The position numbers and the translations under genes are program-made. This document shows, piece after piece, positions 3,816-57,509 of a stretch of DNA of 61,035 bases. The notes beneath the pieces were generated by a model. That model saw only the letters and a list, made by a program, of their open reading frames with translations. It searched no databases and had not been told where the DNA came from. Every line of letters begins with the position of its first letter. The first letter of the stretch is position 1. Source of the DNA: an uncultured Eubacteriales bacterium (lineage in GTDB: Bacteria > Bacillota > Clostridia > Christensenellales > CAG-138); the NCBI GenBank assembly GCA_902802805.1, contig CADCNE010000004.1, forward strand, positions 1-61,035, written 5' to 3'.

Positions 3816-5834
3816 TTACGCCTTCATGCCGCGGACCGCCTCCGCCACCAGGGCGTCGTCGGCCACGTAGGGCATGGTGATGTGGTCCTTGCCGGCGTTC
3901 ATGCGGTTGTATTCCGCGGCGGTGGCCATGGCGTTCTCGTTGCGGGCCCAGCTCCTGCGGGCCACGCCTACCATGGTGTCCCAGGGCATGGCCATCCGGA
4001 GGATGGTGTCCACCCGCTCGGAGCCGTCCAGCACCATGCCGAAGCCGCCGTTGATGGCCCGGCCGATGCCGGTGCCGCCGCCGTTGTGGAGGGCGATGTA
4101 GCTCATGCCCCGGGCCGCGTTGCCCGCGTAGCACTGGGTGGCCATCTCGGCCATGATGTTGGAGCCATCCTTGATGTTGGAGGTCTCCCTAAAGGGGGCG
4201 TCGGTGCCGCCGGTGTCATGGTGGTCACGGCCCAGGATGACGGGGCCGATCTCGCCGTTTCTAACCATCTCGTTGAACTTCAGGGCGATGTTCATGCGGC
4301 CCATGGCGTCCTGATAGAGGATGCGGCACTGGGTGCCCACCACCAGCTTGTTCTTCTTGGCGTCCCGGACCCAGACGTAGTTGTCGTAGTCCTGGTAGCG
4401 GCGGTTGTGGTTCTTGATGTACTCCGCGGCGGCCGCGTCGGTCTTGTCGAGGTCCTCCGACTTGCGGGAGAGGCAGCACCAGCGGAAGGGACCGTAGCCG
4501 AAGTCGAAGAGCTGGGGCCCCAGGATGTCCTCCACGTAGGAGGGGAACACGAAGCCGTCCAGGTCGTTCTCGCCGTTCTTGCAGACGCTCTTGACGCCGG
4601 AATCGTAGACGGCCTTCAGGAAGCTGTTGCCGTAGTCAAAGAAGTAGGTGCCCTTCTCATGGAACTTACAGATCATCTCATAGTGATGATGGAGGGACTT
4701 ATCCACCCACTTGCGGAAGCCCTCGGGATCCTTGTCCAGCATCTCGGTGCGCTCCGCAAAGGTCAGGCCCTGGGGGCAGTAGCCGCCGTCGTAGGGCACG
4801 TGGCAGGAGGTCTGGTCGCTCATAAGGTCCACGTGGACGTTCTTCTCGTAGAGGTACTCCAAAAGGTCCACGATGTTGCCGTTGTAGGCCACGGCGCAGG
4901 CTTCGCCCGCCGCCTGATGGTCCCGGGCGATCTTCACCGCTTCCTCCAAGCTGGCGGTGCGATGGCTGACCCAGCCCTGGGTGTAGCGGGTGTCGATGCG
5001 GGAGTCGTCCACCTCGGCGATGATGGCGGCGGCGCCGGCGATCATGGCCGCCTTGCCCTGGGCGCCGGACATACCGCCGAGGCCCGCGGAGATGAACAGC
5101 TTTCCGGCCAGATTCTGGTCGTTGGGGATGCCCAGCTTCAGCCGGCCGGCGTTCAGCAGGGTGTTGAAAGTGCCGTGGACGATGCCCTGGGGCCCGATGT
5201 ACATCCAGCCGCCGGCGGTCATCTGGCCGTAGTTGGCCACGCCCAGGGCCGCCGCCCGATTGAAGTTCTCCTGATCGTCGAAGGTGCCCACCATGAGGCC
5301 GTTGGAGATGATGACCCGGGGGGCCAGCTTATGGGAGTGGAAGAGGCCCAGGGGATGGCCGGACATGACCACCAGGGTCTGCTCGTCGGTCAGGGTTTCC
5401 AGGTACTTCTTGATGAGGCGATACTGCATCCAGTTCTGGCAGACCTGGCCGGTCTCACCGTAGGTGGTGAGCTCGTAGGGGTAGAGCGCCACGTCGAAGT
5501 CCAGGTTGTTGTCGATCATGACCTGGATAGCCTTGCCCTCGATGCAGTTGCCCTTATACTCGTCGATGGGCTTGCCGTAGAGCTTGCCGGCGGGACGGAA
5601 GCGGTAGCCGTAGATGCGGCCGTGTTCCTCCAGCTCCTGAGCGAACTCTTTGGCCATCTCTTTATGATGGTCGGGATGGATATAACGAAGAGCGTTCTTG
5701 ATGGCCAGGGCCTTGTCGGCCTCGGTCAAATGGGATTCCCGGCGGGGCGCCCGGCGGTACCCCGGCTCCAGGGCGGGGTATTCGGGAAGCTCGTAATCCA
5801 GGGTAAGAGTTTCTGCCGTGTTGAGATCAGTCAT
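3816..5834 (-). CDS. hutU: urocanate hydratase (long clostridial-type form)
   Basis: 672 aa. GLGGMSGAQGKA NAD-binding motif and urocanase-like sequence throughout. AGAGAGGA RBS upstream. Confidence 0.92.
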   Translation of the reverse strand: MTDLNTAETLTLDYELPEYPALEPGYRRAPRRESHLTEADKALAIKNALRYIHPDHHKEMAKEFAQELEEHGRIYGYRFRPAGKLYGKPIDEYKGNCIEGKAIQVMIDNNLDFDVALYPYELTTYGETGQVCQNWMQYRLIKKYLETLTDEQTLVVMSGHPLGLFHSHKLAPRVIISNGLMVGTFDDQENFNRAAALGVANYGQMTAGGWMYIGPQGIVHGTFNTLLNAGRLKLGIPNDQNLAGKLFISAGLGGMSGAQGKAAMIAGAAAIIAEVDDSRIDTRYTQGWVSHRTASLEEAVKIARDHQAAGEACAVAYNGNIVDLLEYLYEKNVHVDLMSDQTSCHVPYDGGYCPQGLTFAERTEMLDKDPEGFRKWVDKSLHHHYEMICKFHEKGTYFFDYGNSFLKAVYDSGVKSVCKNGENDLDGFVFPSYVEDILGPQLFDFGYGPFRWCCLSRKSEDLDKTDAAAAEYIKNHNRRYQDYDNYVWVRDAKKNKLVVGTQCRILYQDAMGRMNIALKFNEMVRNGEIGPVILGRDHHDTGGTDAPFRETSNIKDGSNIMAEMATQCYAGNAARGMSYIALHNGGGTGIGRAINGGFGMVLDGSERVDTILRMAMPWDTMVGVARRSWARNENAMATAAEYNRMNAGKDHITMPYVADDALVAEAVRGMKA

Positions 5835-13380: not shown

Positions 13381-13530
13381 GGTCTTTCCCCCCCGCTTTT
13401 CGACATGTTTCCATATAAAAAAGTATAGCTGGCGTCCTGTTTCCTGTCAATGGTGGTGCGTCGCCGGTCCACTTCCCGCCGCCTATTTTTCGTCTCCGTA
13501 AAATATTTTATGTTTTTCGTAAAAAAGATG

Positions 13531-13559
13531 TTGACAAACGCAAAGGCAGGGTGTATACT
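13531..13559 (+). promoter_or_regulatory. SigA-type promoter of the DUF2975/HTH operon
   Basis: TTGACA (13531-13536), 17 nt spacer, TATACT (13554-13559). Confidence 0.7.
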
Positions 13560-13569
13560 GCGTCCAGAA

Positions 13570-13588
13570 GTTAACGATAGTCGTTAAC
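13570..13588. promoter_or_regulatory. perfect 8-bp inverted repeat between promoter and start codon; candidate operator of the HTH regulator
   Basis: gttaacga-tag-tcgttaac sits directly downstream of the -10 element. Confidence 0.5.
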
Positions 13589-13619: not shown

Positions 13620-14306
13620 ATGGAAAACAACATTCAAACCAAGGTCAACAAGATCGGCAAGGCCGGCCGGGCCGTTTCGATCATCCTTATCATCCTGCTC
13701 TCCATCGGCGCCTTCGGGCTCCTGGTGGGCGGCGTGATCTGCGCAGCCCTCCCCAAGGACGCGGTCCAGGTGACCATCCAGCCCAACGTGGACGTGATGG
13801 TGGATAAGTCCCTGGCGGGCGAAGACTGGGCCAAAATCGATGAGCTGCTGACAGAGGCTCAGAACAAAGTGGGCGAGGAGTTCGTGGGCGTGGCCCTTGA
13901 TAAGACGGAGGAGGGGCTCATGGTCCATGTGTCCGATCTGGACGAGCTCAAGAACTTCGGCATCCGGGACGCCCTCAAGGCCATCTGCGCGGGGCTCATC
14001 GGCATCGCCAGCGCCATCGTCACCGTGGCCATGTTCCTGAAGCTCTGCGACGCCTTCAAGACCTGCCGCAGCCCTTTCGATGAGCCCGTCATCAAGCGGA
14101 TGAACATCTTCGCCTGGACGCTGATCGTCTGCGCCGTGGTGGGCGCCTTCGCCAAGGGCGCCGTGTCCGCCGCGCTCGCCGGCCTGGGCAAGATGAGCTT
14201 CGATCTGAGCCTGACCCCCATCTTCACCGCCCTCGTGGTGTTCTTCCTCTGCATGGTGTTCCGCTACGGCGCCCAGCTCCAGCAGGAAGCCGACGAGACT
14301 CTGTGA
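13620..14306 (+). CDS. DUF2975 domain membrane protein
   Basis: 228 aa with multiple TM segments. The C-terminal FRYGAQLQQEADETL is typical of DUF2975. Followed by a YozG-type HTH gene, which is the usual pairing. Confidence 0.85.
   Translation: MENNIQTKVNKIGKAGRAVSIILIILLSIGAFGLLVGGVICAALPKDAVQVTIQPNVDVMVDKSLAGEDWAKIDELLTEAQNKVGEEFVGVALDKTEEGLMVHVSDLDELKNFGIRDALKAICAGLIGIASAIVTVAMFLKLCDAFKTCRSPFDEPVIKRMNIFAWTLIVCAVVGAFAKGAVSAALAGLGKMSFDLSLTPIFTALVVFFLCMVFRYGAQLQQEADETL
13860..13895 (+). repeat. 36-nt exact repeat, copy 1 (inside the DUF2975 gene, in frame, encodes QNKVGEEFVGVA)
   Basis: cagaacaaagtgggcgaggagttcgtgggcgtggcc is identical to 14402..14437. Confidence 0.95.
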
Positions 14307-14314
14307 GGTGGCCC

Positions 14315-14563
14315 ATGGGAAAGATCATTCTCAGGCTCGATCGGGTCATGGCCGATAGGAAGATGAGCCTCATTGAGCTGTCGGAGAAGGTGGGCGTGGC
14401 CCAGAACAAAGTGGGCGAGGAGTTCGTGGGCGTGGCCAACGTGAACCTGTCCAAGCTGAAGAACGGCCACATCAGTGCCATCCGCTTCTCCACCCTCATC
14501 GCCATCTGCGAAGCGCTGCACTGTCAGCCAGGGGATATATTGGAGTATTCACCGGAGGAATAG
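14315..14563 (+). CDS. YozG/Xre-like helix-turn-helix transcriptional regulator carrying a 12-aa in-frame insertion in the HTH
   Basis: MGKIILRLDRVMADRKMSLIELSEKVGV[AQNKVGEEFVGV]ANVNLSKLKNGHISAIRFSTLIAICEALHCQPGDILEY. Without the bracketed segment it matches the short DUF2975-associated HTH proteins. Confidence 0.85.
   Translation: MGKIILRLDRVMADRKMSLIELSEKVGVAQNKVGEEFVGVANVNLSKLKNGHISAIRFSTLIAICEALHCQPGDILEYSPEE
14402..14437 (+). repeat. 36-nt exact repeat, copy 2 (inside the HTH gene, in frame), flanked by the 12-nt direct repeat gtgggcgtggcc
   Basis: Identical to 13860..13895. The 12-mer gtgggcgtggcc occurs at 14390-14401 and again at 14426-14437. Confidence 0.95.
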
Positions 14564-14581
14564 GAGTTTATTGAAAGCATC

Positions 14582-14722
14582 TGAACCTTTTCTTGAAAGA
14601 AAAGGTTCAACCAAAAGAACTTAAGAAGGAGGCAATGCTGTGCGCAATGCCTCCTTATTTTTCTTAAGCTTTTCTTTTTCCGCCGCTTTTTCTTTTCACT
14701 GAAAAGAAAAAGCGGCAAAACA
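14582..14722 (+). repeat. tripartite palindromic intergenic element, full-length copy (hairpins A, B, C)
   Basis: Hairpin A is tgaaccttttctt/aagaaaaggttca. A linker aaaagaacttaagaa follows. Hairpin B is ggaggcaatgc/gcaatgcctcc followed by a T-rich run. A second linker is ttcttaagcttttcttttt. Hairpin C is gccgctttttcttttc/gaaaagaaaaagcggc followed by aaaa. It lies between convergent genes. Confidence 0.85.
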
Positions 14723-14726
14723 AAAA

Positions 14727-15494
14727 CTAAATCCCAAACAGCCGTTTCCCATTCTCGAACAGCACGGGCGCTAACGTTTCCTGGTCCATGCTGCGGAGCT
14801 CGGCCAGCTTTTGGAGGACGTAGAGGGTCTTGGTGGGGTCGTTGCGCTGGCCTCGGCAGGGCACGGGGGCCATGTAGGGACAATCGGTCTCGACGACCAG
14901 GCGGTCCAGGGGGACCTTGGCGGCCACCTCCACGTTCCGCTTGGCGTTCTTGAAGGTCAACGCGCCGCCGAAGCCGATATAAAAGCCCATGTCGAGGCAC
15001 TCCTTGGCCGTTTCATAGCTGCCGGAGAAGCAGTGCATGACGCCGGTGACCTGGCCTTTGTGGGCCCTGAGGATGTCCACCGTGTCCCCGTGGGCCTCCC
15101 GATCGTGGATGATAACGGGCAGATGATGGACCGCCGCCAGGGAGAGCTGGGCGTCGAAAAACTCCCTTTGGACCTCCCGGGGCGGGTTCTCGGGCCAGTA
15201 GTAGTCGAGACCGATCTCCCCCACCGCCTTGATCTTCTCGTGAGCCAAGGCACTTTCTACGGCATCGAGATCGCTGAGCGCATAGGGCCCCAGCTCCTCC
15301 GGGTGCAGGCCCGCCGCCCCGTAGATCATGGGATGCCGCTCTATGAAGGGGATCAGCTTTTCAAGGTAGCCGAGGTCCGTGCAGGCCTCCATGACCAGCT
15401 TCACGTTATTATCAGCTAAAGAAGCTATCAGTTGTTCCCTGTCGCTGTCAAAGTGATCATCTAACAGGTGGGCGTGGGTGTCGAAGATGTCCAT
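14727..15494 (-). CDS. tatD: TatD family hydrolase
   Basis: ORF trimmed to MDIFDTHAHLLDDHF, which has an AGGAG RBS. TatD metal-binding motifs are present. Confidence 0.9.
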   Translation of the reverse strand: MDIFDTHAHLLDDHFDSDREQLIASLADNNVKLVMEACTDLGYLEKLIPFIERHPMIYGAAGLHPEELGPYALSDLDAVESALAHEKIKAVGEIGLDYYWPENPPREVQREFFDAQLSLAAVHHLPVIIHDREAHGDTVDILRAHKGQVTGVMHCFSGSYETAKECLDMGFYIGFGGALTFKNAKRNVEVAAKVPLDRLVVETDCPYMAPVPCRGQRNDPTKTLYVLQKLAELRSMDQETLAPVLFENGKRLFGI

Positions 15495-15543
15495 AGGGCT
15501 CCTTGTTCGTTCAGAGATCCCTCCCTTCGGTCGGGATGACAAA

Positions 15544-15573
15544 GGGAGACAAAGGGCGGGCCTGAGCCCGCCC
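15544..15573 (-). terminator. probable terminator downstream of metG
   Basis: gggcgggc-ctga-gcccgccc stem (15554-15573), followed on the minus strand by tttgtctcccttt. Confidence 0.5.
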
Positions 15574-15588
15574 GGTTTCGTTCAGTTG

Positions 15589-17541
15589 TTACCGCACTAC
15601 GTACCCCGAGGGCATGTCGGTGTAGGGGCCGATGAGGGACAGGTCTTCGTCGGCGGGATCGGATACCGCCAGGACCATGCCCCGGCTCTCCACGCCGCAG
15701 AGGGTGGCGGGCTTCAGGTTCGCCACCAGCACCACGGTCTTCCCCACCAGGTCGGCGGGGGCGTACCACTTCTTGATGCCGGAGACCACGGTCCGCTCCT
15801 CACCGCCCACGTCCAGGGTGAGCTTCAGGAGCTTCTTGGACTTCTTGACCTCCTCGCAGGCCTTCACCTTGGCCAGGCGGAAATCCACCTTCGCAAAGTC
15901 GTCGTAGCTGATCTCCTCCTTGAGAGGGGGCAGGGCCGGCTTCTCAGGCTCGGCGGGGGCCTCCGGGGCCTCCTCGTTCAAGCCCACTTTATCGAGGACC
16001 TCGTTGAGGTCCATCCGGGCGAAGAGGATCTCGGGCTTCTCGGCCACCTTGTTGCCGGAGGGATAGAGGCCGAAGTCCGTGAGGCCGTCGAAGGGCCGGG
16101 GGTTGGCGTTGAGCTCGGAGAGGATCTTCGCGCCGGTGTCCGGCAGGAAGGGGGCAAGGAGGCTGGCGCCCATGGCGATGCTCTCGGTCAGGTTGTAGAG
16201 GACCTCCTTCAGCCGGTTGGCCTTGGTCGGGTCTTTAGCGAGCGTCCAGGGGGCGGTCTCGTCGATGTACTTGTTGCAGCGCTTGAAGAGGTTGAAGATC
16301 TCCGTGATGGCGTCCGCCACCCGAAGCTCGTCCATCCTGGCGGTGACCTTGGTGACCGCGGTCCTGGCCGCCTCCTTCAGCTCCTCGTCCACGGCCTCCC
16401 GGGCGTTGGTGCGCTCCACCACGCCGCCGAAATACTTGTTGGACATGGCCACGGTCCGGTTGACCAGGTTGCCGAGCGTGTTGGCGAGGTCCGCATTCAG
16501 CCGCTCCACCAGCAGCTCGTAGGTGCAGTTGCCGTCGCTGTCGAAGGGCATCTCGTGAAGGAGGAAATAGCGGATGGCGTCCAGGCCGAAAAGCTTGACG
16601 AGCTCGTCCGCGTACATGACGTTGCCCTTACTTTTGCTCATCTTTCCGCCGCCCATGAGGAGCCAGGGATGGCCGAAGATCTGCTTGGGCAGCGGGAGAT
16701 CGAGGGCCATCAGGAAGATGGGCCAGTAGATGGTGTGGAAACGGATGATGTCCTTGCCGATGAGGTGCAGGTCAGCGGGCCAGAAGATGTTGAACTGTGT
16801 GGTGCTGTTCCCGTCGGGCTCGTAGCCCACGCCGGTGATGTAGTTGGTGAGGGCGTCCAGCCACACGTAGACCACGTGCTTGGGATCGAAGTCCACGGGG
16901 ATGCCCCAGGTGAAGGAGGACCGGGACACGCACAGGTCCTGGAGGCCGGGCAGCAGGAAGTTGTTCATCATCTCGTTCTTCCGGGCCACGGGCTGGATGA
17001 ACTCGGGATGCTGGTTGATGTAGTCGATGAGCCGGGGGGCGTACTTGCTCATCTTGAAGAAGTAGGCCTCCTCCCGGGCGGGCTTCACCTCGCCGCCGCA
17101 GTCGGGGCAGCGGCCGTCCTTGAGCTGGGAGGCGGTGAAGAAGGACTCGCAGGGCGTGCAGTACATGCCCTCGTAGGCACCCTTGTAGATGTCGCCCTGG
17201 TCGTAGAGCTTCTTGAAGATGCGCTGGACCTTCCGCTCATGGTCCCTGTCCGTGGTGCGGATGAACTTATCGTAGGAGGTGTTCATGAGATCCCAGATGT
17301 TCTTGATCTCGCCGGCCACGCTGTCCACGTAGGCCTGGGGCTCCATGCCTGCCTTCTGGGCCTTCTCCTCGATCTTCTGGCCGTGCTCGTCGGTGCCGGT
17401 CTGGAAGAACACGTCGTAGCCCATGAACCGCTTGTAGCGGGCGATGGCGTCCGCCAGCACGATCTCATAGACGTTGCCGATGTGGGGCTTGGCCGAGGCG
17501 TAGGCGATGGCCGTGGTGATGTAGTAGGGTCGCTTTTCCAT
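15589..17541 (-). CDS. metG: methionine--tRNA ligase
   Basis: YYITTAIAYASAKPHIGN (HIGH-type), KMSKSKGN (KMSKS) and a C-terminal tRNA-binding domain. Start set to the ATG at 17541, which is 8 nt after GGAAGGAGGA. Confidence 0.93.
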   Translation of the reverse strand: MEKRPYYITTAIAYASAKPHIGNVYEIVLADAIARYKRFMGYDVFFQTGTDEHGQKIEEKAQKAGMEPQAYVDSVAGEIKNIWDLMNTSYDKFIRTTDRDHERKVQRIFKKLYDQGDIYKGAYEGMYCTPCESFFTASQLKDGRCPDCGGEVKPAREEAYFFKMSKYAPRLIDYINQHPEFIQPVARKNEMMNNFLLPGLQDLCVSRSSFTWGIPVDFDPKHVVYVWLDALTNYITGVGYEPDGNSTTQFNIFWPADLHLIGKDIIRFHTIYWPIFLMALDLPLPKQIFGHPWLLMGGGKMSKSKGNVMYADELVKLFGLDAIRYFLLHEMPFDSDGNCTYELLVERLNADLANTLGNLVNRTVAMSNKYFGGVVERTNAREAVDEELKEAARTAVTKVTARMDELRVADAITEIFNLFKRCNKYIDETAPWTLAKDPTKANRLKEVLYNLTESIAMGASLLAPFLPDTGAKILSELNANPRPFDGLTDFGLYPSGNKVAEKPEILFARMDLNEVLDKVGLNEEAPEAPAEPEKPALPPLKEEISYDDFAKVDFRLAKVKACEEVKKSKKLLKLTLDVGGEERTVVSGIKKWYAPADLVGKTVVLVANLKPATLCGVESRGMVLAVSDPADEDLSLIGPYTDMPSGYVVR

Positions 17542-17595
17542 GAACATATCCTCCTTCCCGCCGGGGCGGGATGTATCTGAATTCATAAGATTTTA

Positions 17596-19008
17596 TCAGC
17601 GTGTTTCTTCCCTGTCAACCACAAATATCCAGGGCAGGAGCCCGCCGGCCTCGGTGCGCTTCTGCTCCCGAAGGACCAGGCCCTTCGATCGGTCCAGGCA
17701 CCCCTTCAGGAGCTTGTACTCCATGGTATAGAGCACCGCCGTGCCGCCGGGACTAAGGAGCTCGGGGAGGCGGCGGACGAACCGGTCATAGAGGCGGGTG
17801 TTGTCCTCGTGGCTGCCCACCCGGTTCCCGAAGGGCAAGTTGGAGAGGATGAGATCGAAGCCCTCCCGAGCTTCGAACCGCAGGGCGTCCTTGGTGACGA
17901 AGGAGGCCTTGGACTTCCCTGCCCGGGCGTTGGTCCGGGCGCTCTCCACGGCCGTGCCGCTTTTATCGACGCCCACCAGCACCCGGCAGGGGCCCAGGGC
18001 TTCCCGGACAAAGAGCAGGGAGCCGCAGCCGCAGAAGGGGTCCAAGACCCGGGGGCGCTCCCGCTTTTCAAATCGCATGGCATATCGAGCCAGGCAAAAG
18101 GCCGTGGCCGGGTGGATGGAGGCGCTGACGGTCCGCTGCCGCCAGGGGTAGCGGCCGTCCTTCACGTTCCACAGCTTCCAATAGAGGTCCGCCTTGTCCA
18201 TATGGCAGTCCACCCGAAGCTCCGTGTCGTAGGCCGAGGGGTTGTTCTGCCCCGGCAGCGCACCCGCCAGCGCGGTGATGAGCTTGCGCCGGTCCCGGGT
18301 GTAGCCCCGAAGCTCGATCCGGTACCGCTCGGCAGGCATAGGCCCGACCTGTTGGGCGATGGTCTGTGCGTCCAGGGGCACGTCGAAGGCGATGGGCAGC
18401 AGGGCCTCGGCCATGCAGTTAGCTTTGTACACCTGCCCGATCTTGTCTGTAATGACCGCGGCGGCCCCATGCTCCGCTTTGGCCGAGAAGCCCAGCGACC
18501 TGAGCTCCTCCATGAGCACATCCAAAAAGCCCTCGGGGGCATAGCACAGCACCTTTCGCGGGGCGGGCAGACGGGTGATCTGTTCCGCGCCGTAGGTCTC
18601 GAAGCTCTGGAGGGCCTTGTCCCGACTGAGGACGATCTGAGCCACCAGGCCGTCGGTCTCAGGGCTCGGGGAAGCGGGGGGCTCATAGGCCCGCAGAGTG
18701 GCCTCGTCCCCCAATCGGCCCAGGGCCAGGATGAGGCTGGGGATGGCAAACAGGGTCTCTTCCTTCTGCAGCGCGGTCCGCAGCACGGGCAGATCCCTCT
18801 CGTCCTCCAGGGCGCCCATGAGCCGGTAGGCGTTCTTGCGGACCTTGGGCGTGGGGGACTGGGCGGCGCTGTGCAGGGGGAGCCTGTCCCCCAACAGGCC
18901 GTTGATCTCCTCCCGACCCGCCCTGGTCTTCCCCAGAACGCACAAAGCGGACAGGGCCTCCCCCGCCGCTTCGGCGTCCAGCTGCTCGATATAGGTTTGA
19001 GCCGTCAT
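17596..19008 (-). CDS. class I SAM-dependent (THUMP-type, RNA) methyltransferase with an N-terminal HEAT-like repeat region
   Basis: 470 aa. VLDPFCGCGSLLF (motif I) and LSNLPFGNRVG (the N/D-PPF-type motif of the UPF0020 family). 4-nt overlap with the murG stop. Confidence 0.7.
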   Translation of the reverse strand: MTAQTYIEQLDAEAAGEALSALCVLGKTRAGREEINGLLGDRLPLHSAAQSPTPKVRKNAYRLMGALEDERDLPVLRTALQKEETLFAIPSLILALGRLGDEATLRAYEPPASPSPETDGLVAQIVLSRDKALQSFETYGAEQITRLPAPRKVLCYAPEGFLDVLMEELRSLGFSAKAEHGAAAVITDKIGQVYKANCMAEALLPIAFDVPLDAQTIAQQVGPMPAERYRIELRGYTRDRRKLITALAGALPGQNNPSAYDTELRVDCHMDKADLYWKLWNVKDGRYPWRQRTVSASIHPATAFCLARYAMRFEKRERPRVLDPFCGCGSLLFVREALGPCRVLVGVDKSGTAVESARTNARAGKSKASFVTKDALRFEAREGFDLILSNLPFGNRVGSHEDNTRLYDRFVRRLPELLSPGGTAVLYTMEYKLLKGCLDRSKGLVLREQKRTEAGGLLPWIFVVDREETR

Positions 19009-20069
19009 TGGCCCACCGCCCGGAAGATCAGGCGCAGGATATTTTCGGTGCCGTCGGCGCCGGGGGCGGCGGCCATGGCGTCCGCGTACTTCTGCCGGTC
19101 ATGGTAGACGGCTAGCACGGTATCCACCAGCTTCTCGGGCGTAGCTTCCGCCTGGGGCAGGTGGACGGCGTAGCCGTTCTTCTCAAAGTATTTCGCGTTC
19201 AGGATCTGGTCGCCGCGGCTCGCTTCCAGGGGCAGGGGGATGAGCACGGCGGGCTTCTTCAGGGCCAGGAGCTCGAAGACCGCGTTGGCCCCCGCCCGGC
19301 TCACCACCACGTCCGCAGCCGCCAGCACGTCGGCCATCTGCTCGTTCACGTATTCGAAGCGCACGTATCCGGGCCGGGGGGCGGTGTCGTCCGCCTTGCC
19401 CTGACCGCAGAGATGCACGATGTCGAAGGTCTTCAACAGTTCGTCCAAGGCCGCCTCCACCGCCTCGTTCACGGCCTTGGCCCCGGTGCTGCCGCCCACC
19501 ACCAGCAGGACGGGCTTTTCGCCCGTGAGGCCCGTGAAGGCGAGGCCCTTCTCCCGGCTGCCCTCGAACAGGGCCGCCCGGATGGGGGTGCCGGTGTGGA
19601 CGCCCTTGTTCCCGGGGACCTTCGCCACGGTATCCGCAAAGGTGGTGCAGACCGTGTCCGCGAACCGGGACGCGATCCTGTTGGCGAGGCCCGGGGAATA
19701 ATCGCTCTCGTGGCAGAGGACGGGGCACTTCCCCTTGGCCGCCATGACCACGGGCACGGACACGTAGCCGCCCTTGCTGAAGAGCACGTCAGGCTTCACG
19801 GTCCTCATGATCTTTCTGGACTGAAAATACCCCTTCACCACCCGGAAGGGATCGGTGAAATTCTTCCAGGAGAAGTAACGCCGAAGCTTCCCCCAGGCCA
19901 CGGCGTGATAGACGACCTCGGGGCGCTTTGCAAGGAGCTCATGCTCGATGCCCTCCTCCGTGCCGATGTAGTGGATGGTCCACTCGTTTTTGTCCAGCCG
20001 ATCCATCAGCGCCAGGTTGGGCATCACGTGCCCCGCCGTGCCGCCGCCGGTAAAGATGATGGTCTTCAT
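19005..20069 (-). CDS. murG: undecaprenyldiphospho-muramoylpentapeptide beta-N-acetylglucosaminyltransferase
   Basis: 354 aa. IIFTGGGTAGHVMPNLAL N-terminus and the GT28 C-terminal motif VVSRAGANAVFEL. Confidence 0.92.
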   Translation of the reverse strand: MKTIIFTGGGTAGHVMPNLALMDRLDKNEWTIHYIGTEEGIEHELLAKRPEVVYHAVAWGKLRRYFSWKNFTDPFRVVKGYFQSRKIMRTVKPDVLFSKGGYVSVPVVMAAKGKCPVLCHESDYSPGLANRIASRFADTVCTTFADTVAKVPGNKGVHTGTPIRAALFEGSREKGLAFTGLTGEKPVLLVVGGSTGAKAVNEAVEAALDELLKTFDIVHLCGQGKADDTAPRPGYVRFEYVNEQMADVLAAADVVVSRAGANAVFELLALKKPAVLIPLPLEASRGDQILNAKYFEKNGYAVHLPQAEATPEKLVDTVLAVYHDRQKYADAMAAAPGADGTENILRLIFRAVGQ

Positions 20070-20114
20070 TCCCTCTCCCCTTGCTTTTTCTGGTTTTCGC
20101 TATTCTATGCGGCC

Positions 20115-22757
20115 TCAGCCGTTGGTGTTCCCGTCGTCCTCGGTATCCGTCGTAGCTGAAGTCGTCACGGTATCGGTGTCGCCGGTCCCGCTGTTTTCTA
20201 TGCAGCTCTCGGAAGTGGGGGGCACGGTCAGCGTGTCGTCCTTCAGCAGCACCTGGGCGATGAGGAACTTCATCTGGGTCCACTCGTCCACCTGCTTGGT
20301 CATGTCGATCTCCAGCATGACCAGCACCAGCCGCTCCTCCTCGGGCTCCAAAGGCGTGCCGTCGATATGCCGGCTGCGGAAGGCCACGAACCAGGCGAGC
20401 TCCTTGTCGGCGTCCTTGGCGTTAAGCTTCTTAGCGAGCTCTGCCGTGCCCGTCTTGCCCGCGCAGGTGTAGGTCCTGAGCACGCTCAAAAACCTGCCGG
20501 TGCCGTAGCCGCCCCAGTTCTCCTTGGTCACGGGGTTCTTGCCCATGTTGCTGGGGGCTTCCACCACGCCCTCCAGCATGTCCAGGATAGCGTCGGCGGT
20601 GCTGGTAGCGCAAAGCTCCTTCCAGATGGTCGCCTCGTGATGGCTGACCTCCGTATATTCGGTCTTGTCCTCCTGCCAGATGGACTCGATGACATAGGGC
20701 TCGTAGACGGTGCCTCCGTTGCGGAAAGCGGAGATGTAGCTCGCCAGCTGCAGCGGCGTCAGCAGCAGCTCCCCCTGTCCGTATCCGGTCATGGCCAGCA
20801 GGTCCATGGTCTCCTCGGAGACCAGTCCGTTCTCATCCGGGGTGGTGTTCTTGATCTGGGATCTCTGGGTGGGCAGATCGAAGGGGATGGACTCGCCCAT
20901 GCCCATGACGGAAAGATACCGCTTCAGGGTGTCCCAGCCGATCTTCATACCGAGATAGGCAAAGTAGATGTTGTCCGACTGGATCATGCAGTTCTTCATG
21001 TTCATGGGGCCCCGCCGGTTGGTGCTGTAGGTACGGGTGACCTTGGTCACGCCGGACTCCGGCATCAGGGTGCCCTTGGTGGGGTTCCAGATGGTGTCGG
21101 TGCCCTTGAGGCGCTCCTGCTCCTCGGGAAAGGCCCAGTCCAGGGTCACGGCACCGCTCTCCAGGGCCGTGATGGCCACCAGGGGCTTGAAGGTGGACCC
21201 CGGGGGATAGAGGCCCTGGATGGCCCGGTTCAGGAGGGGGGTCTTGGGGTCCTTCTCCATGGCCGCCCAGACCTCGTCGTCCATCTCGCCCCGGGAGAAG
21301 CTGTTGGGATCGTAACCGGGGAAGGAGACCATGGCCTCCACGCCGCCGGTGGTGGGGTTCATGACGATGACCGTGCCGCTGATGGAGTCGTCGTAGACGA
21401 TGGTTTGAATGGCCTCCTCCACCCGCTTCTGCAGGTCGATCTTCACGGTCAGGTGCAGGTCCTCCCCGTCCACGGGGGGGATGTTGTACAGGATCTGCTT
21501 GACCTTGCCGCCGGCGCCCTGGATGTAGGCGAAGCTCCCCTTGACGCCCCGCAGCTTTTCCTCATACTGTTTCTCAAGGCCCGCGTAACCCAGCCAGCTG
21601 TCGCCATCGTAGTTGGGGTCGTTGACCTTGTTTCCGTTTTCATCGAGAACGTACAGCCATTCCTTGTTCTCCTTGAGGATGCCGTTCTCCATGGAGTAGT
21701 GGTTCAAATACTCCTTCTGGATGATGCCGGCGTAGCCCAGAAGGTGGGCGAGGCTGGTGCCGTAGGGGTACTGCCGGAGGGTGCCGTAGTTGTTGCTGTC
21801 CACGCCCACGCCGGGGATGGTCAAGAGTCGCGCCTCCAGCTCCGGGGTCATCTGGTCCGGGTACATGACCTTCAATTTGGCGAAGTCACGGAAGGTACGG
21901 GCCAGGCTGTTGCGCACGTCCGCCTCCGTGAGGTTCAGCTCCGGCACGGCGGCCACCGCCTGCTCGAAGGGCACGTACAGCTCCTTTTCCAGCAGCTGGT
22001 CGGGGGTCAGGGACTTGTCCTCGGCTTTGAAGAGGGTCTTCACGTCGGTGACGGCCTTGCCGCCGTCCTTCAGCTGGATCTTGCTGGGGATGCAGTAGAT
22101 GGTGACTGCGGGCACGTTCTCCGCAAGGAGGATGCCCTCCGCGTCGAAGATCTCGCCACGGTCCGGATAGTTGGTGCCCATCAGCATGGTATCGCCCCAC
22201 TCCATGTTGGGGAAGATGAGGCTGGGGTCCCACATGACCACCCAGCCCTCGTGATACTCGCTGTTGACGGTGAAATCGAAGATCAGGTTCCCGGCCTTGC
22301 TGGTGAGATAGGCCATGCGGTAGACCACGCTGGCGTTCAGGGTGCCGTTCACCTCGGAAACGATCTGGGCGGTGATGGCGGTGAGCCCCATGGCCTCGAA
22401 GATGTCCGTGTACCGCCTTTTGAACTCAGTCCTGGTCATGCGGTGGTCAGTGACCTCCGCGGGCACCGCCGTAGGTTCCGCCGTGGGGAGCGGCGTGGCC
22501 GTGGGCTCCGCCGTAGGTGCGGCGGTCTCACCGGGGCCGGGGGTGGGCGCCTTGGTGGCCTTGGGCGGCTCCGGGGGCTCCTCCTTCTGCAGGTCGGGGG
22601 CGATGAGGGTGTAGGCGGCGTCAAAGTTCTGGTTGGCCAGATACTCGATGAACTGACGGCAGACCACGCTCCCCTGGCCCCGGTCCGGGCCGCAGCCCGT
22701 GAGAGCCACGGGCAGGAGCATGGCCAGTATGATCAATGCGGCGATGGCGCGTTTCAA
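20115..22757 (-). CDS. penicillin-binding protein (PBP2-class transpeptidase) lipoprotein with an N-terminal NTF2-like domain and a Pro/Thr-rich linker
   Basis: 880 aa with a TTG start preceded by GGAGGA. LTGC lipobox. STFK active-site motif (PPGSTFKPL), SDN (QSDNIYF) and KTGTA. Confidence 0.9.
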   Translation of the reverse strand: MKRAIAALIILAMLLPVALTGCGPDRGQGSVVCRQFIEYLANQNFDAAYTLIAPDLQKEEPPEPPKATKAPTPGPGETAAPTAEPTATPLPTAEPTAVPAEVTDHRMTRTEFKRRYTDIFEAMGLTAITAQIVSEVNGTLNASVVYRMAYLTSKAGNLIFDFTVNSEYHEGWVVMWDPSLIFPNMEWGDTMLMGTNYPDRGEIFDAEGILLAENVPAVTIYCIPSKIQLKDGGKAVTDVKTLFKAEDKSLTPDQLLEKELYVPFEQAVAAVPELNLTEADVRNSLARTFRDFAKLKVMYPDQMTPELEARLLTIPGVGVDSNNYGTLRQYPYGTSLAHLLGYAGIIQKEYLNHYSMENGILKENKEWLYVLDENGNKVNDPNYDGDSWLGYAGLEKQYEEKLRGVKGSFAYIQGAGGKVKQILYNIPPVDGEDLHLTVKIDLQKRVEEAIQTIVYDDSISGTVIVMNPTTGGVEAMVSFPGYDPNSFSRGEMDDEVWAAMEKDPKTPLLNRAIQGLYPPGSTFKPLVAITALESGAVTLDWAFPEEQERLKGTDTIWNPTKGTLMPESGVTKVTRTYSTNRRGPMNMKNCMIQSDNIYFAYLGMKIGWDTLKRYLSVMGMGESIPFDLPTQRSQIKNTTPDENGLVSEETMDLLAMTGYGQGELLLTPLQLASYISAFRNGGTVYEPYVIESIWQEDKTEYTEVSHHEATIWKELCATSTADAILDMLEGVVEAPSNMGKNPVTKENWGGYGTGRFLSVLRTYTCAGKTGTAELAKKLNAKDADKELAWFVAFRSRHIDGTPLEPEEERLVLVMLEIDMTKQVDEWTQMKFLIAQVLLKDDTLTVPPTSESCIENSGTGDTDTVTTSATTDTEDDGNTNG

Positions 22758-22901
22758 ACGGTTTCCTCCAAAGTATAAAAAAAGCTGTTTATACTATACC
22801 AGAAAGGACGGGGTTTTGCATCCCCGTCCAACAACTTTTTTCAAAAAAGCCGCTTTTTAAAAATTAACAGGTATGTATCTGTCGTACGTATAGCCATATC
22901 C

Positions 22902-22967
22902 CTTCTTAAGCTTCTCTTTTTTGCGCCGCTTTTTTCCTCTTCACCGAAGAGAAAAAAGCGGCAAAAA
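22902..22967 (+). repeat. palindromic element, module-C-only copy
   Basis: cttcttaagcttctctttttt + gccgcttttttcctcttc/gaagagaaaaaagcggc + aaaaa. It lies in the divergent PBP/deacetylase intergenic region, directly upstream of the -35 at 22980. Confidence 0.8.
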
Positions 22968-24230: not shown

Positions 24231-25487
24231 ATGAAGAAGAGTTTGAGGATAGCGACCCTGGCCGTGGCCATCTGTATGATCCTGGGCGCCTGGGCCGTGG
24301 TCTACGCCAAAACGGAGACCGAAAAAAACAGCGCGGCCATGGAAATGACCACCGCCGTCAGCGGCAGGACCGATACGACCACTGGTCTTTCCACGGGGAC
24401 AGCCATCTTCCAGAAAGCGGACCTGTTCTCCGACCGGGATCTGCAGCAGACCGCGGACCTGACCAAGGCCGTGACCTATGCGGTCAGCGACGACGAGGAT
24501 ATCTCCATCACCGCCGCGGGGGTCTACGTGCTGACCGGCAGCGCGAAAAACGTGACCGTGACCGTGGAGGCCAATAAGGACGACAAGGTGCAGCTGGTAT
24601 TGGATGGCCTCGCCGTCACTAACGGCGACACGCCTGCGATCTACGTGAAGTCCGCCGACAAGGTCTTCGTCACCACCAGCGCAGACAGCAGCCTTTCCGT
24701 CACCGGCGCCTTCGCCGCGGACGGGGACGCCAAGGTGGACGGTGTGATCTTCTCCAAGTCAGACCTGACCCTCAACGGCACGGCCACCCTCACCATCTCC
24801 TCCACGAAAAACGGCATCGTGGGCAAGGACGACGTGAAAATCACCGGCGGTACCTATGCGATCTCCGCCAAAGTGAAGGCCATCGAAGCCAACGATTCCA
24901 TCCGCATCGCGGACGGTACCCTGGATCTGACCGCCGGCACCGACGGCCTCCACGCGGAGAACGACGAGGACGATTCCAAGGGCTACATCTACATCGGCGG
25001 CGGCAGCGTCACCGTCAACGCCGGGGACGACGGCATCCACGCCGCCACCGTGGTCCAGGTGGACGACGGCACCGTCGCCGTCACCGCGGCCGAAGGCATC
25101 GAAGGGACCTACGTCCAGCTCAACGGCGGCACCGTCACGGTCAGCGCCCGGGACGACGGCATCAACGCCGCCCAAAAGTCCTCGAGCTACCGGGCCACCG
25201 TGGAGGTCAACGGCGGCGATATCACCGTTTCCATGGGCTCCGGGGACACGGACGGCGTGGACAGCAACGGGGACATCATCGTCAATGGCGGCACCATCGC
25301 CGTCACCGGCAACAGCACCTTCGACTACGACGGCACCGGCCAGCTCAACGGCGGCACCGTCATCGTCAACGGCCAGCAGGTCACCTCCCTCCCCGACCAG
25401 TTCGGCGGCAATGGCGGTCGCGGCGGCTGGGGCGGCAATGGCGGTCGCGGTGGCTGGGGCGGCAATGGCGGTCGCGGCGGGCATTGA
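24231..25487 (+). CDS. secreted carbohydrate-binding beta-helix protein (Cthe_2159-like family) with a Gly/Arg/Trp repeat tail
   Basis: ORF trimmed to MKKSLRIATLAVAICMIL (signal peptide). Repeated motifs GDDGIHA, DDGINA and GTDGLHAEND. The tail is GGNGGRGGW x3. Confidence 0.7.
   Translation: MKKSLRIATLAVAICMILGAWAVVYAKTETEKNSAAMEMTTAVSGRTDTTTGLSTGTAIFQKADLFSDRDLQQTADLTKAVTYAVSDDEDISITAAGVYVLTGSAKNVTVTVEANKDDKVQLVLDGLAVTNGDTPAIYVKSADKVFVTTSADSSLSVTGAFAADGDAKVDGVIFSKSDLTLNGTATLTISSTKNGIVGKDDVKITGGTYAISAKVKAIEANDSIRIADGTLDLTAGTDGLHAENDEDDSKGYIYIGGGSVTVNAGDDGIHAATVVQVDDGTVAVTAAEGIEGTYVQLNGGTVTVSARDDGINAAQKSSSYRATVEVNGGDITVSMGSGDTDGVDSNGDIIVNGGTIAVTGNSTFDYDGTGQLNGGTVIVNGQQVTSLPDQFGGNGGRGGWGGNGGRGGWGGNGGRGGH
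25404..25484 (+). repeat. coding tandem repeat, 27 nt x 3 (GGNGGRGGW/H)
   Basis: ggcggcaatggcggtcgcggYggctgg is repeated three times at the 3' end of the gene. Confidence 0.9.
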
Positions 25488-28693: not shown

Positions 28694-28757
28694 TTTTGCC
28701 GCTTTTTTCTCTTCAATGAAGAGAAGAAAAGCGGCGCAAAAAAGAGAAGCTTAAGAA
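28694..28757 (-). repeat. palindromic element, module C in inverted orientation
   Basis: ttttgccgcttttttctcttc-aatg-gaagagaagaaaagcggcgcaaaaaagagaagcttaagaa is the reverse complement of the module-C-plus-cttaag-leader layout. Confidence 0.8.
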
Positions 28758-28790: not shown

Positions 28791-28856
28791 TTTTTAAGTT
28801 TCTTTTTTTAGGCGACTTTTTCTCCTTTGTATAAAGAGAAAAAGTCGCAAAACAAA
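28791..28856 (+). repeat. palindromic element, module C (variant stem gcgac/gtcgc)
   Basis: tttttaagtttcttttttt + aggcgactttttctcctttgtataaagagaaaaagtcgc + aaaacaaaa. It faces the inverted copy at 28694..28757. Confidence 0.8.
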
Positions 28857-33395: not shown

Positions 33396-33458
33396 CTTCT
33401 TAAGTTTCTCTTTTTGAGCGACTATTTCTTCTTTATCCAAAGAGAAAAAGCCGCAAAA
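33396..33458 (+). repeat. palindromic element, degenerate module C
   Basis: cttcttaagtttctcttttt + gagcgactatttcttcttt..aaagagaaaaagccgc + aaaa. The stem has several mismatches. Confidence 0.65.
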
Positions 33459-33462
33459 TAAA

Positions 33463-41200: not shown

Positions 41201-41342
41201 GCGCCTTTTCTTCGAAGAGAAAAGGCGCCCCAAAAGAACTTAAATGGGAAGTATCGCTTGCGCTGTACTTCCCATTATTATTCCTAAGTTTCTCTTTTTC
41301 CGCCGCTTTTTCTCTTTGTCTAAAGAGAAAAAGCGGCAAAGG
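41201..41342 (+). repeat. tripartite palindromic intergenic element, full-length copy (hairpins A, B, C)
   Basis: Hairpin A is gcgccttttct/agaaaaggcgc. A linker ccaaaagaacttaaa follows. Hairpin B is tgggaagta/tacttccca. A second linker is ttattattcctaagtttctcttttt. Hairpin C is ccgccgctttttctcttt-gtct-aaagagaaaaagcggc followed by aaagg. It lies between convergent genes. Confidence 0.85.
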
Positions 41343-41352
41343 ATATGATTCG

Positions 41353-57406: not shown

Positions 57407-57502
57407 AAAAAGGAGATTCTCTGCAGAATCTCCTTTATCCCAATAAAGTTTCTCTTTTTCCGCCGCTTTTTCTCTTTGTATAAAGAGAAAAAGCGGCAAA
57501 AG
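57407..57502 (+). repeat. palindromic element (hairpin B' + module C); hairpin B' doubles as the minus-strand terminator of the liv operon
   Basis: aaaggagatt-ctctgcag-aatctccttt (57409-57436) is followed on the minus strand by ttttt. Then comes the linker atcccaataaagtttctcttttt. Then ccgccgctttttctctttgtataaagagaaaaagcggc followed by aaaag. Confidence 0.8.
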
Positions 57503-57509
57503 AAGGTAC

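What the first reader, a model, noticed from the sequence alone, without database searches (positions are those of the whole stretch)
13860..14437. Exact 36-nt in-frame sequence shared by two adjacent genes; in the regulator it splits the helix-turn-helix and is flanked by a 12-nt direct repeat
The string cagaacaaagtgggcgaggagttcgtgggcgtggcc occurs at 13860-13895 in the DUF2975 gene. It occurs again 542 nt downstream at 14402-14437 in the HTH gene. Both copies are in frame and both encode QNKVGEEFVGVA.

In the HTH gene the copy is bracketed by gtgggcgtggcc (14390-14401 and 14426-14437). Deleting the 36 nt restores LSEKVGVANVNLSKLKNG, which is the normal helix2-turn-helix3 spacing of YozG-type regulators.

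The simplest reading is a microhomology-mediated templated insertion, with the DUF2975 gene as donor. That insertion would probably alter or abolish DNA binding by the operon's own regulator, possibly as a reversible on/off switch. The heptamer gtgggcg occurs three times locally, which makes the region slippage-prone. I know of no described mechanism or element of this kind.
Basis: seen in the sequence. Interest (0 to 1): 0.65.

Follow-up and report, generated by a model that had tools for sequence, protein, structure and literature searches.

The report
One-off 36-bp copy inside a repressor gene
A 36-base piece of a membrane-protein gene is copied into the DNA-binding turn of the neighbouring small repressor gene, but only in this one metagenome contig, so it is either a rare copying-error mutation or an assembly stitch, not a new genetic element or switch.

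Summary
The 36-mer occurs exactly twice (13860-13895 and 14402-14437), in frame both times, and the second copy is bracketed by GTGGGCGTGGCC. The DUF2975 (YoaS-like) gene is the donor: the segment is native in its orthologues across species. The HTH_26 (YozG-like) gene is the recipient: 23 distinct same-species contigs, 22 loci from other species and 16 sequencing runs all carry the empty site GAGAAG-GTGGGCGTGGCC-AACGTG.

The insert is found nowhere else. The window comes from a rumen metagenome run (X48 = ERR3201421, about 8x). That run's independent Logan contig is identical to the window except for one base (14373, 28 nt before the insert), and it stops exactly at the left junction (14401). 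A second assembly stops at 14399. Neither junction is in any contig of that run.

The allele is therefore not clonal. It is either a thinly supported minority variant made by a polymerase template switch (about 0.45) or an assembly or library artefact (about 0.45). If real, it loops out 12 residues between helix 2 and the recognition helix and should derepress the operon. Nothing supports a programmed reversible switch. This kind of mutation is already known. Interest is low.

The parts
13531..13559 (+). Sigma-70-type promoter of the two-gene operon: TTGACA, 17 nt, TATACT.
   Evidence: Scores 11 of 12 in the consensus scan. Conserved in orthologous loci of other species whose coding DNA is only about 75% identical.
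13570..13588 (.). Putative operator: the perfect palindrome GTTAACGA-TAG-TCGTTAAC, just downstream of the -10 box.
   Evidence: Found in the window and in most related loci, including other species. Inverted repeats upstream of YoaS-YozG operons are described as putative autoregulatory operators in bioRxiv 10.64898/2026.09.15.751765. Binding is inferred, not shown.
13620..14306 (+). DUF2975 (YoaS-like) membrane protein gene, 228 aa. This is the donor gene.
   Evidence: Matches Pfam PF11188 at E=3.9e-07. The identical protein is on 17 other contigs.
13860..13895 (+). Donor copy of the 36-mer, codons 81-92 (QNKVGEEFVGVA).
   Evidence: Coordinates. The segment is native in DUF2975 orthologues of many species.
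13884..13895 (+). 12-mer GTGGGCGTGGCC, copy a, at the end of the donor segment.
   Evidence: Position. In many strains 13885 is A (GAG, Glu), which shortens the homology to 10 nt.
14315..14563 (+). HTH_26 (YozG-like, Cro/C1-type) regulator gene. It is 82 aa here and 70 aa in all close relatives.
   Evidence: Matches Pfam PF13443, split into 2 stretches. Orthologues are 70 aa. The closest solved structure is 3TYR.
14373..14373 (+). Unique substitution, T here and A elsewhere (AAT to ATT, N20I), 28 nt upstream of the insert.
   Evidence: It is the only difference from the source run's Logan contig over 5,782 nt. It is also the only base difference in about 20 kb of Logan contigs. N20 is conserved in at least 90% of homologues.
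14390..14401 (+). 12-mer GTGGGCGTGGCC, copy b. This is the native VGVA codons of the HTH turn and the left border of the insert.
   Evidence: Position. The Logan contig of the source run ends at 14401. Contig L053 ends at 14399.
14402..14437 (+). The inserted 36 nt: 24 nt of donor-specific sequence plus a third copy of the 12-mer (14426-14437).
   Evidence: Coordinates. Absent from every other locus and run examined.
14582..14609 (+). Perfect 13-bp hairpin (TGAACCTTTTCTT/AAGAAAAGGTTCA) after the HTH stop codon. It is a likely operon terminator region and is followed by a second hairpin at 14623-14659.
   Evidence: Inverted repeats I4 and I2. The terminator scan did not call them because there is no T-run, so the role is inferred.

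Best explanation
The 36 nt is a secondary, templated copy of DUF2975 codons 81-92 placed into the turn of the helix-turn-helix of the adjacent YozG-like autorepressor. It most likely arose in vivo as a single replication or repair error.

Proposed steps (all inferred):
1. A nascent + strand ending at ...GTGGGCGTGGCC (14401) left its template.
2. It primed 542 nt upstream, next to GGCT/CAGAAC, with only imperfect GGC microhomology.
3. It copied 36 nt, up to and including the donor's own GTGGGCGTGGCC.
4. It returned to the HTH gene through that 12-nt homology.
5. The A-to-T change 28 nt upstream would belong to the same error-prone tract.

A 542-bp tandem duplication followed by a 506-bp deletion between the 12-mers gives the identical product.

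The allele is not fixed in the sampled population. It is at most a minority or very thinly covered variant that the assembler used to bridge a spot where the normal path could not be assembled.

Consequence if real (inferred): 12 unstructured residues separate helix 2 from the recognition helix. Operator binding at the conserved palindrome 13570-13588 would be lost or weakened, and the DUF2975-HTH operon would be derepressed. A precise deletion between the two 12-mers flanking the insert could revert it, but only as an ordinary rare slippage event.
For: Structure:
- An exact same-strand copy of a sequence 542 nt upstream, with the donor intact, and 12-nt homology at the return junction.

Polarity and recency:
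- Every orthologue has the empty site. This includes near-clonal relatives: L002 has 2 mismatches in 8.4 kb, and L036 has 1 mismatch in 5.8 kb.
- The segment is native in DUF2975 orthologues.

The left junction shares no k-mer with any wild-type sequence. A de Bruijn assembler needs at least one read that carries it.

The only base at which the window differs from about 20 kb of the source run's Logan contigs is 28 nt from the junction. The substitution and the insert therefore travel together, as on one molecule or haplotype.

Two independent assemblies carrying the common A14373 base dead-end at 14401 and 14399. One of them (L053) is only possibly from the same sample. This fits something unusual at that exact point.

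Another sample's contig of the same strain (L040) joins the donor 12-mer directly to the HTH downstream sequence. That is a 506-bp deletion-type junction, identical to the insert's right junction. The 12-mer pair has therefore produced another rearranged junction.

Effect on the protein:
- The Pfam HTH_26 match is split by the insert.
- The insert falls between helix 2 and helix 3 in the 3TYR alignment.
- AlphaFold: residues 28-43 have pLDDT below 50, and four of five models have a mean below 50. The 73-aa wild-type control (P0004) gives means of 70-80 in all five models.

Operon model:
- The promoter and palindromic operator are conserved.
- The YoaS-YozG operon and its upstream inverted repeats are described in bioRxiv 10.64898/2026.09.15.751765.
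Against: - No contig of the source run (Logan, k=31, words seen at least twice) holds either junction. The run's contig passes through the donor copy unbroken. A clonal 36-nt repeat longer than k should break it at 13860-13895 and let it run to 14431.
- The insert is absent from 16 other runs, all other contigs, 5.8 billion proteins, and the GTDB and JGI collections.
- The left junction has zero exact microhomology. That is unusual for a template switch and is what a blind contig join would give.
- Scaffolds from assembly ERZ919342 carry small in-frame duplications in this same gene and in metG that look like join artefacts. Their 'scaffold_N' names match the idba_ud naming of the source project's assemblies.
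- Raw reads could not be inspected.
Confidence: 0.45

Rival explanations
1. Assembly artefact. The assembler or scaffolder joined the wild-type left contig, which dead-ends at 14401, end to end with a contig that starts inside the DUF2975 36-mer and continues into the HTH downstream sequence. Contig L040 has exactly that second kind of start. No DNA molecule would then have the left junction.
For: - Independent assemblies stop at 14401 (Logan contig of the source run) and 14399 (L053, possibly the same sample), and neither junction is in the source run's contigs.
- L040 shows that donor-to-HTH-downstream junction sequence exists and forms contig ends.
- Zero microhomology at the left junction is what blind concatenation gives.
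- The study assembled each sample with idba_ud, whose output is named 'scaffold_N'.
- Scaffolds so named from ERZ919342 carry a 27-nt duplication and an imperfect 33-nt duplication in this same HTH gene, plus a 72-nt exact duplication in the essential metG gene.
- The HTH gene shares stretches of 30 nt or more with at least 9 other species and is a contig-break hotspot.
Against: - It does not explain the unique T at 14373. The left contig in the other assemblies has A there.
- The window has no N and no other join-type duplication in 61 kb.
- It needs the left contig to end exactly at 14401.
- The 36-nt length matches no idba_ud k-1 overlap (19, 39, 59 and so on) or MEGAHIT k (27, 37 and so on) without extra trimming.
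- The window's assembler is unknown. A plain de Bruijn assembler cannot create the left junction.
Confidence: 0.38
2. Library chimera. A polymerase template switch during library PCR produced one chimeric fragment, and the assembler used it to bridge a low-coverage gap.
For: - Read support is evidently very thin.
- The libraries were Illumina TruSeq.
- The linked base change could be a read or PCR error on the same fragment.
Against: - It needs two switches within 36 nt, one of them on 3 nt of imperfect homology. That is very unlikely at PCR annealing temperatures (general knowledge, not tested here).
- A similar right-hand junction appears in an unrelated sample.
Confidence: 0.07
3. A clonal, fixed loss-of-function allele of the repressor in this strain, possibly selected because derepressing the DUF2975 protein is useful.
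For: - The window's contig carries the insert as its only path.
- Other putative loss-of-function alleles of this small gene exist in metagenome assemblies: a nonsense codon in L050, a 47-nt frameshifting deletion in the MAG locus L019, and the deletion junction in L040.
Against: - The Logan contig of the same run carries A14373, passes unbroken through the donor copy and ends at 14401 rather than 14431. That is incompatible with a clonal 36-nt repeat at about 8x.
- Near-identical strains carry the empty site.
Confidence: 0.06
4. A programmed, reversible on/off switch (contingency locus). The 12-nt repeats would drive frequent insertion and precise excision of the 36 nt to toggle the repressor.
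For: - The insert is flanked by 12-nt direct repeats that could excise it precisely.
- It is in frame.
- The 12-mer pair also appears in a deletion junction in another sample.
Against: - The inserted state was seen once. It is absent from 16 runs, 23 same-species contigs and 22 loci from other species.
- There is no recombinase, invertible segment or simple-sequence tract at the locus.
- Insertion needs a non-homologous left junction, so it is not the reverse of the excision.
- In many strains the donor 12-mer is only 10 nt long (13885 A).
Confidence: 0.03

Closest known systems
Templated insertions from template switching or microhomology-mediated repair (short-range template-switch mutations, MMBIR/FoSTeS, MMEJ-type templated insertions; PMC7954356, PMC12426944, bioRxiv 10.1101/2022.03.14.484287)
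   Same: A short stretch is copied from a nearby donor that stays intact. The copy is flanked by pre-existing homology at the return junction. It is accompanied by a nearby point change. It is a single non-programmed event.
   Different: The left junction has no exact microhomology, only GGC plus a mismatch. The event is seen in one metagenome contig without read-level confirmation. The responsible polymerase or pathway in this Clostridia-like organism is unknown.
RecA-independent slippage between short direct repeats (deletion or duplication)
   Same: The 12-mer GTGGGCGTGGCC pair behaves like such repeats. L040 carries the 506-bp deletion junction between them. The insert could be lost again by deletion between the two 12-mers that are 36 nt apart. 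A 542-bp duplication followed by the 506-bp deletion reproduces the window exactly.
   Different: A single slippage between the 12-mers cannot create the insert. A second junction without homology is needed.
YoaS-YozG operon: a DUF2975 membrane protein with a Cro/C1-type HTH_26 autorepressor (bioRxiv 10.64898/2026.09.15.751765; PDB 3TYR/3TYS)
   Same: Same gene pair and order, with 8 nt between the genes, a strong promoter and a palindromic putative operator upstream.
   Different: Here the regulator has 12 extra residues in the turn and N20I. The function of the operon is unknown in any organism.
Scaffold-join duplications in short-read metagenome assemblies
   Same: The feature sits at a place where independent assemblies break. 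Small in-frame duplications occur in the same gene in scaffolds L011 and L012. The feature is unique to one assembly.
   Different: Those artefacts are tandem duplications of the local sequence. This one is a copy from 542 nt away and is linked to a base change.

Membership tests
HTH_26 / YozG-like Cro/C1 regulator | Matches the Pfam PF13443 profile above its gathering score. | tested here: met
   68.7 bits against a cut-off of 22, but split into two stretches. With the 36 nt removed the score is 75.7 bits and the match is contiguous, 1-63/63.
HTH_26 / YozG-like Cro/C1 regulator | Canonical helix2-turn-helix3 spacing. | tested here: not met
   There are 12 extra residues between ...SEKVGVA and NVNLSKL. 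None of the 42 homologues aligned with the window's protein has them. The position was mapped on 3TYR.
YoaS-YozG operon | A DUF2975 gene immediately upstream, co-oriented, with an inverted repeat in the promoter region. | tested here: met
   Gene order. Promoter and palindrome. Description in the literature.
Microhomology-mediated templated insertion | The insert is identical to a nearby sequence, and that sequence remains in place. | tested here: met
   36 of 36 nt identical to 13860-13895, on the same strand, 542 nt upstream.
Microhomology-mediated templated insertion | A precise empty site in close relatives. | tested here: met
   L002 and L036 are at least 99.95% identical and carry GAGAAGGTGGGCGTGGCCAACGTG.
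Microhomology-mediated templated insertion | Microhomology at both junctions. | tested here: inconclusive
   The right junction has 12 nt. The left junction has 0 nt exact, only GGC followed by a C/T mismatch.
Microhomology-mediated templated insertion | Junctions present in sequencing reads of the source DNA. | not testable with these tools
   Only Logan contigs of run X48 are available. They hold neither junction, and the contig ends at 14401.
Phase-variable / contingency locus | Both states recur within and between populations. | tested here: not met
   The insert is absent from 16 other runs and from 45 related loci.
Phase-variable / contingency locus | A dedicated mechanism: a simple-sequence tract, or an invertible segment with a recombinase. 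| tested here: not met
   No tandem tract and no flanking inverted repeats at the insert. The neighbouring genes are a 417-aa protein without a Pfam hit, TatD and MetG.
Transposable element with target-site duplication | Terminal inverted repeats or a transposase, and further copies elsewhere. | tested here: not met
   The 24-nt unique part occurs only at the two sites. One of the 'flanking' 12-mers belongs to the copied segment itself.
Assembly join artefact | Not reproduced by independent assemblies of the same reads, and located at a contig break. | tested here: met
   The Logan contig ends at 14401 and L053 ends at 14399. No contig covers 14402-14690 of this genome in X48.
Assembly join artefact | Junction k-mers absent from the raw reads. 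| not testable with these tools
   Raw reads of the 2019 run are not held.

The most novel reading that the evidence does not exclude
The two GTGGGCGTGGCC repeats, one in each gene of the operon, could make the locus a natural rearrangement hotspot. It would repeatedly generate loss-of-function alleles of the autorepressor in rumen populations: the 36-bp insertion here, the 506-bp in-frame DUF2975::HTH fusion junction in L040, and possibly duplications. That would act as a crude, partly reversible way of derepressing the DUF2975 membrane protein under selection.
Probability: 0.06. Interest if true: 0.5.

Novelty: new member of a known kind. Interest (0 to 1): 0.15.

Why it matters
If real, this is one more natural example of a short templated insertion in a bacterium. 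It would knock out a tiny autorepressor of a widespread operon of unknown function (DUF2975/YoaS with YozG). That would give a natural 'derepressed' genotype for asking what the operon does.

The practical lesson is more important. This small HTH gene is nearly identical at the DNA level across many co-occurring rumen species and is a hotspot for contig breaks and small structural artefacts. In-frame indels seen in it in metagenome assemblies or MAGs should not be interpreted biologically without read-level checks.

Tried and rejected
**Searches for the insert elsewhere, all negative**
- Exact-protein look-ups of the 82-aa and 86-aa products found nothing.
- A junction 31-mer has no match in the GTDB genomes or the JGI metagenomes.
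- No indexed run holds more than 2 of the 5 sampled words across the insert.
- 16 runs laid on the locus are all wild type.

**Recurrent in-frame insertions in this gene as evidence of selection: rejected**
- The only two other 'insertion' proteins are P0002 and P0003.
- Both come from one scaffolded assembly, ERZ919342, which also duplicates 72 nt inside metG.
- The two copies in P0003 differ at 3 bases, as two strains' contig ends would.

**Full-length DUF2975::HTH fusion (deletion allele)**
- A search of the protein database found no such protein.

**Other readings considered and rejected**
- Mobile element with target-site duplication: rejected (see the membership test).
- Diversity-generating retroelement (template and variable repeat): rejected from the sequence. 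The copies are identical, with no adenine-specific differences, they are only 36 nt long, and the 'variable' copy would lie in the middle of an HTH. I did not search the window for a reverse transcriptase.
- Anti-phage defence system: PADLOC gave no hit for DUF2975 and only weak generic HTH hits.
- Matching the 36-nt length to an assembler's k value: inconclusive. L040's 79-nt stub equals 79, a value in MEGAHIT's default k list as I recall it (not checked here). Neither 36 nor 40 fits idba_ud or the MEGAHIT k list without extra assumptions.

- Looking up the exact wild-type 70-aa protein.
- Searching runs with L040's junction.
Full report
**1.

The 36-mer CAGAACAAAGTGGGCGAGGAGTTCGTGGGCGTGGCC is present exactly twice in the window, at 13860-13895 and 14402-14437, both on the + strand. 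None is expected by chance. The first copy is codons 81-92 of a 228-aa DUF2975 protein gene (13620-14306). The second lies in an 82-aa HTH_26 regulator gene (14315-14563). Both are in frame.

The 12-mer GTGGGCGTGGCC occurs at 13884, 14390 and 14426 and nowhere else in the 61 kb. In the regulator gene the arrangement is therefore 12-mer, 24 new bases, 12-mer.

The similarity runs to 40 nt with one mismatch, GGCT versus GGCC. The left junction has no exact microhomology. The right junction has 12 nt.

**2. Donor, recipient and the empty site**

I fetched contigs that encode the identical DUF2975, TatD or upstream 417-aa protein. I also fetched loci that match the wild-type site in the GTDB and JGI collections. 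This gave 23 distinct contigs of the same species and 22 loci from other species.

Every one reads GAGAAG-GTGGGCGTGGCC-AACGTG, the precise empty site. Those that show the whole gene encode a 70-aa regulator. Near-clonal relatives also have the empty site:
- L002 has 2 mismatches in 8.4 kb.
- L036 has 1 mismatch in 5.8 kb.

The segment AQ-NKVGEEF-VGVA aligns without gaps in DUF2975 orthologues of many species. The DUF2975 gene is therefore the donor, the regulator gene is the recipient, and the event, if real, is very recent.

In the listed top 120 of 7,993 homologous proteins, only the window's own product carries the 12 residues.

**3. Is it really in the DNA?**

The window's source is a bovine rumen metagenome run. 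Run X48 holds 0.99 of the sampled words of window:30001-40000. Its 6,800-nt Logan contig is the record ERR3201421_24070, fetched as L005.

Across 20 kb, the Logan contigs of this run (k=31, words seen at least twice) agree with the window at every base but one. That base is 14373, T in the window and A in the contig. It lies 28 nt before the insert. It changes a nearly invariant Asn to Ile.

The same Logan contig, at depth 7.9, behaves as follows:
- It runs straight through the donor copy.
- It ends exactly at 14401, the last base before the insert.
- No X48 contig of this genome covers 14402-14690.
- Neither the insert junctions nor the wild-type junction are present.

A clonal 36-nt repeat is longer than k. 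It should have broken the contig at 13860-13895 and let it run on to 14431. The insert is therefore not the clonal state at normal depth.

A second assembly of the same strain, SPIRE scaffold L053 (20.8 kb), also carries A at 14373 and stops at 14399. It may be from the same sample, but I could not confirm that.

Sixteen other runs that hold this species are all wild type at the site. A junction 31-mer is absent from GTDB genomes and JGI metagenomes.

**4. This gene is treacherous in assemblies**

The regulator gene shares stretches of 30 nt or more with at least nine other species. Many contigs end inside it.

Two other 'in-frame insertion' variants turned up in the protein search. P0002 has a 27-nt exact tandem duplication. 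P0003 has a 33-nt duplication whose two copies differ at three bases. Both come from one scaffolded assembly, ERZ919342. That assembly also duplicates 72 nt inside the essential metG gene and contains runs of N. I read these as scaffold-join artefacts.

The source study assembled each sample with idba_ud, whose scaffolds are named 'scaffold_N'. It also made MEGAHIT co-assemblies with k = 27, 37..., 87 (PMC6785717).

The window itself has no N and no other join-type duplication.

**5. An unexpected relative of the right junction**

Contig L040 comes from another study's MEGAHIT assembly and is the same strain. It ends with 79 nt of DUF2975 (13817-13895) joined directly to AACGTG... (14438 onward). 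That is a 506-bp deletion between the two native 12-mers. It makes an in-frame DUF2975(1-92)::HTH(30-70) fusion. Its junction is identical to the right junction of the window's insert.

The stub is exactly 79 nt. As I recall it, 79 is a value in MEGAHIT's default k list, so the stub looks like a branch contig with thin support. No full-length fusion protein exists in the protein database.

This cuts both ways:
- It shows that the 12-mer pair does produce rearranged molecules, which favours biology.
- It provides exactly the kind of contig that a scaffolder could have butted against the dead-ended left contig to create the window's arrangement, which favours an artefact.

A 542-bp tandem duplication followed by this 506-bp deletion also reproduces the window base for base.

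**6. Weighing the explanations**

*For a real molecule:*
- A de Bruijn assembler needs a read carrying the left junction.
- The unique substitution 28 nt away is linked to the insert and is absent from the majority path. This is what one bridging molecule or haplotype would give.
- The geometry is typical of a polymerase template switch: same-strand donor nearby, 12-nt return homology.
- Two assemblies die at the exact site.

*For an artefact:*
- No independent support exists anywhere.
- The left junction has zero microhomology.
- Scaffold-join duplications occur in this same gene in another 'scaffold_N' assembly (ERZ919342).
- A deletion-type contig exists that could be mis-joined.

I put a real in-vivo, sub-clonal template-switch mutation at about 0.45. 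I put an assembly join at about 0.38, a library chimera at about 0.07, a clonal selected allele at about 0.06 and a programmed switch at about 0.03. Only the raw reads of ERR3201421 can decide, and they are not available here.

**7. What it would do if real**

The operon has the following features:
- a near-consensus promoter, TTGACA-17-TATACT, at 13531-13559;
- a perfect palindrome just downstream, GTTAACGA-TAG-TCGTTAAC, at 13570-13588.

Both are conserved in species whose coding sequence is only about 75% identical. This fits the described YoaS-YozG operon, which has putative autoregulatory operators (bioRxiv 10.64898/2026.09.15.751765).

The insert lies after the VGVA turn, between helix 2 and the recognition helix (alignment to 3TYR). 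It splits the Pfam match.

AlphaFold gives the following:
- For the 82-aa protein, residues 28-43 have pLDDT below 50 and the recognition helix is weak. Four of the five models have a mean below 50.
- A wild-type homologue with the same alignment depth gives means of 70-80 in all five models and no low-confidence segment.

Loss or weakening of operator binding and derepression of the DUF2975 gene is the expected outcome. This is inferred, not shown. Reversion by deletion between the 12-mers 36 nt apart is possible, but only as ordinary slippage.

**8. Comparison with what is known, and novelty**

Mechanistically this is a templated insertion of the template-switch or microhomology-mediated kind, a described class (PMC7954356, PMC12426944). 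It is combined with short-direct-repeat slippage.

It fails the tests for the following:
- a phase-variable locus, because there is no recurrence and no dedicated machinery;
- a mobile element;
- a retroelement-diversified site.

It is at most a new instance of a known kind of mutation in a known operon type, and it may not be real. A specialist would not be surprised. The useful outcome is the caution about this gene in metagenome assemblies, plus a clear read-mapping test.

Noticed in passing
L040:3558-3636 (equivalent to window 13817-13895 joined to 14438 onward): A contig of the same strain from another sample carries a 506-bp deletion-type junction between the two native 12-mers. This predicts an in-frame DUF2975(1-92)::HTH(30-70) fusion. 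Only 79 nt of the left side are present before the contig ends.
   Followed up: partly
L011:1862-1917; L012 HTH gene 2538-2783 and metG 5572-5719: Scaffolds of assembly ERZ919342 carry a 27-nt duplication and an imperfect 33-nt duplication in the HTH gene, plus a 72-nt exact tandem duplication in metG. L011 also has an N run. These are very probably scaffold-join artefacts.
   Followed up: yes
L050 (HTH codon 37) and L019 (HTH N-terminal half): Other apparent loss-of-function alleles of the small regulator. L050, a same-species MEGAHIT contig, has AAG changed to TAG, a nonsense codon. L019, the GTDB representative MAG RUG14781, has a 47-nt frameshifting deletion. Whether they are real or artefacts was not checked.
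   Followed up: no
window 13885: A T/A polymorphism in the donor (GTG Val versus GAG Glu). Most strains and species have Glu. Only the Val strains have the full 12-nt identity with the HTH gene; the others have 10 nt.
   Followed up: partly
window 14666-14723, 28797-28854, 33403-33460, 41286-41343, 57446-57503: A family of intergenic hairpin repeats of about 58 nt (…CCGCCGCTTTTTCT…AGAAAAAGCGGCAAA…). In rumen metagenomes the 14575-14727 region has contig depths of 77-800x against about 8-20x for the flanks. The element is therefore shared by many genomes or copies.
   Followed up: no
window 22903-22966 and 28694-28757: A 64-nt inverted repeat, 94% complementary, with arms 5.7 kb apart. A Logan contig of the source run links 14622 to 22903 through 39 unrelated letters, probably through shared repeat sequence.
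   Followed up: no
window 13422-13450 (- strand) and 13531-13559 (+ strand): Two divergent promoters with identical hexamers (TTGACA-17-TATACT). One serves the upstream 417-aa gene, which has no Pfam hit, and one serves the DUF2975 operon. In other species, further conserved palindromes (CGTAAAATATTTTACG, TTTACGAAAA motifs) lie around the -35 box.
   Followed up: partly
window 25404-25484: Three tandem 27-nt units (GGCGGCAATGGCGGTCGCGGCGGCTGG) inside a gene that also has 63-nt repeats at 24986-25399. The source run's Logan contig matches this stretch with no differences, so it is genuine.
   Followed up: no
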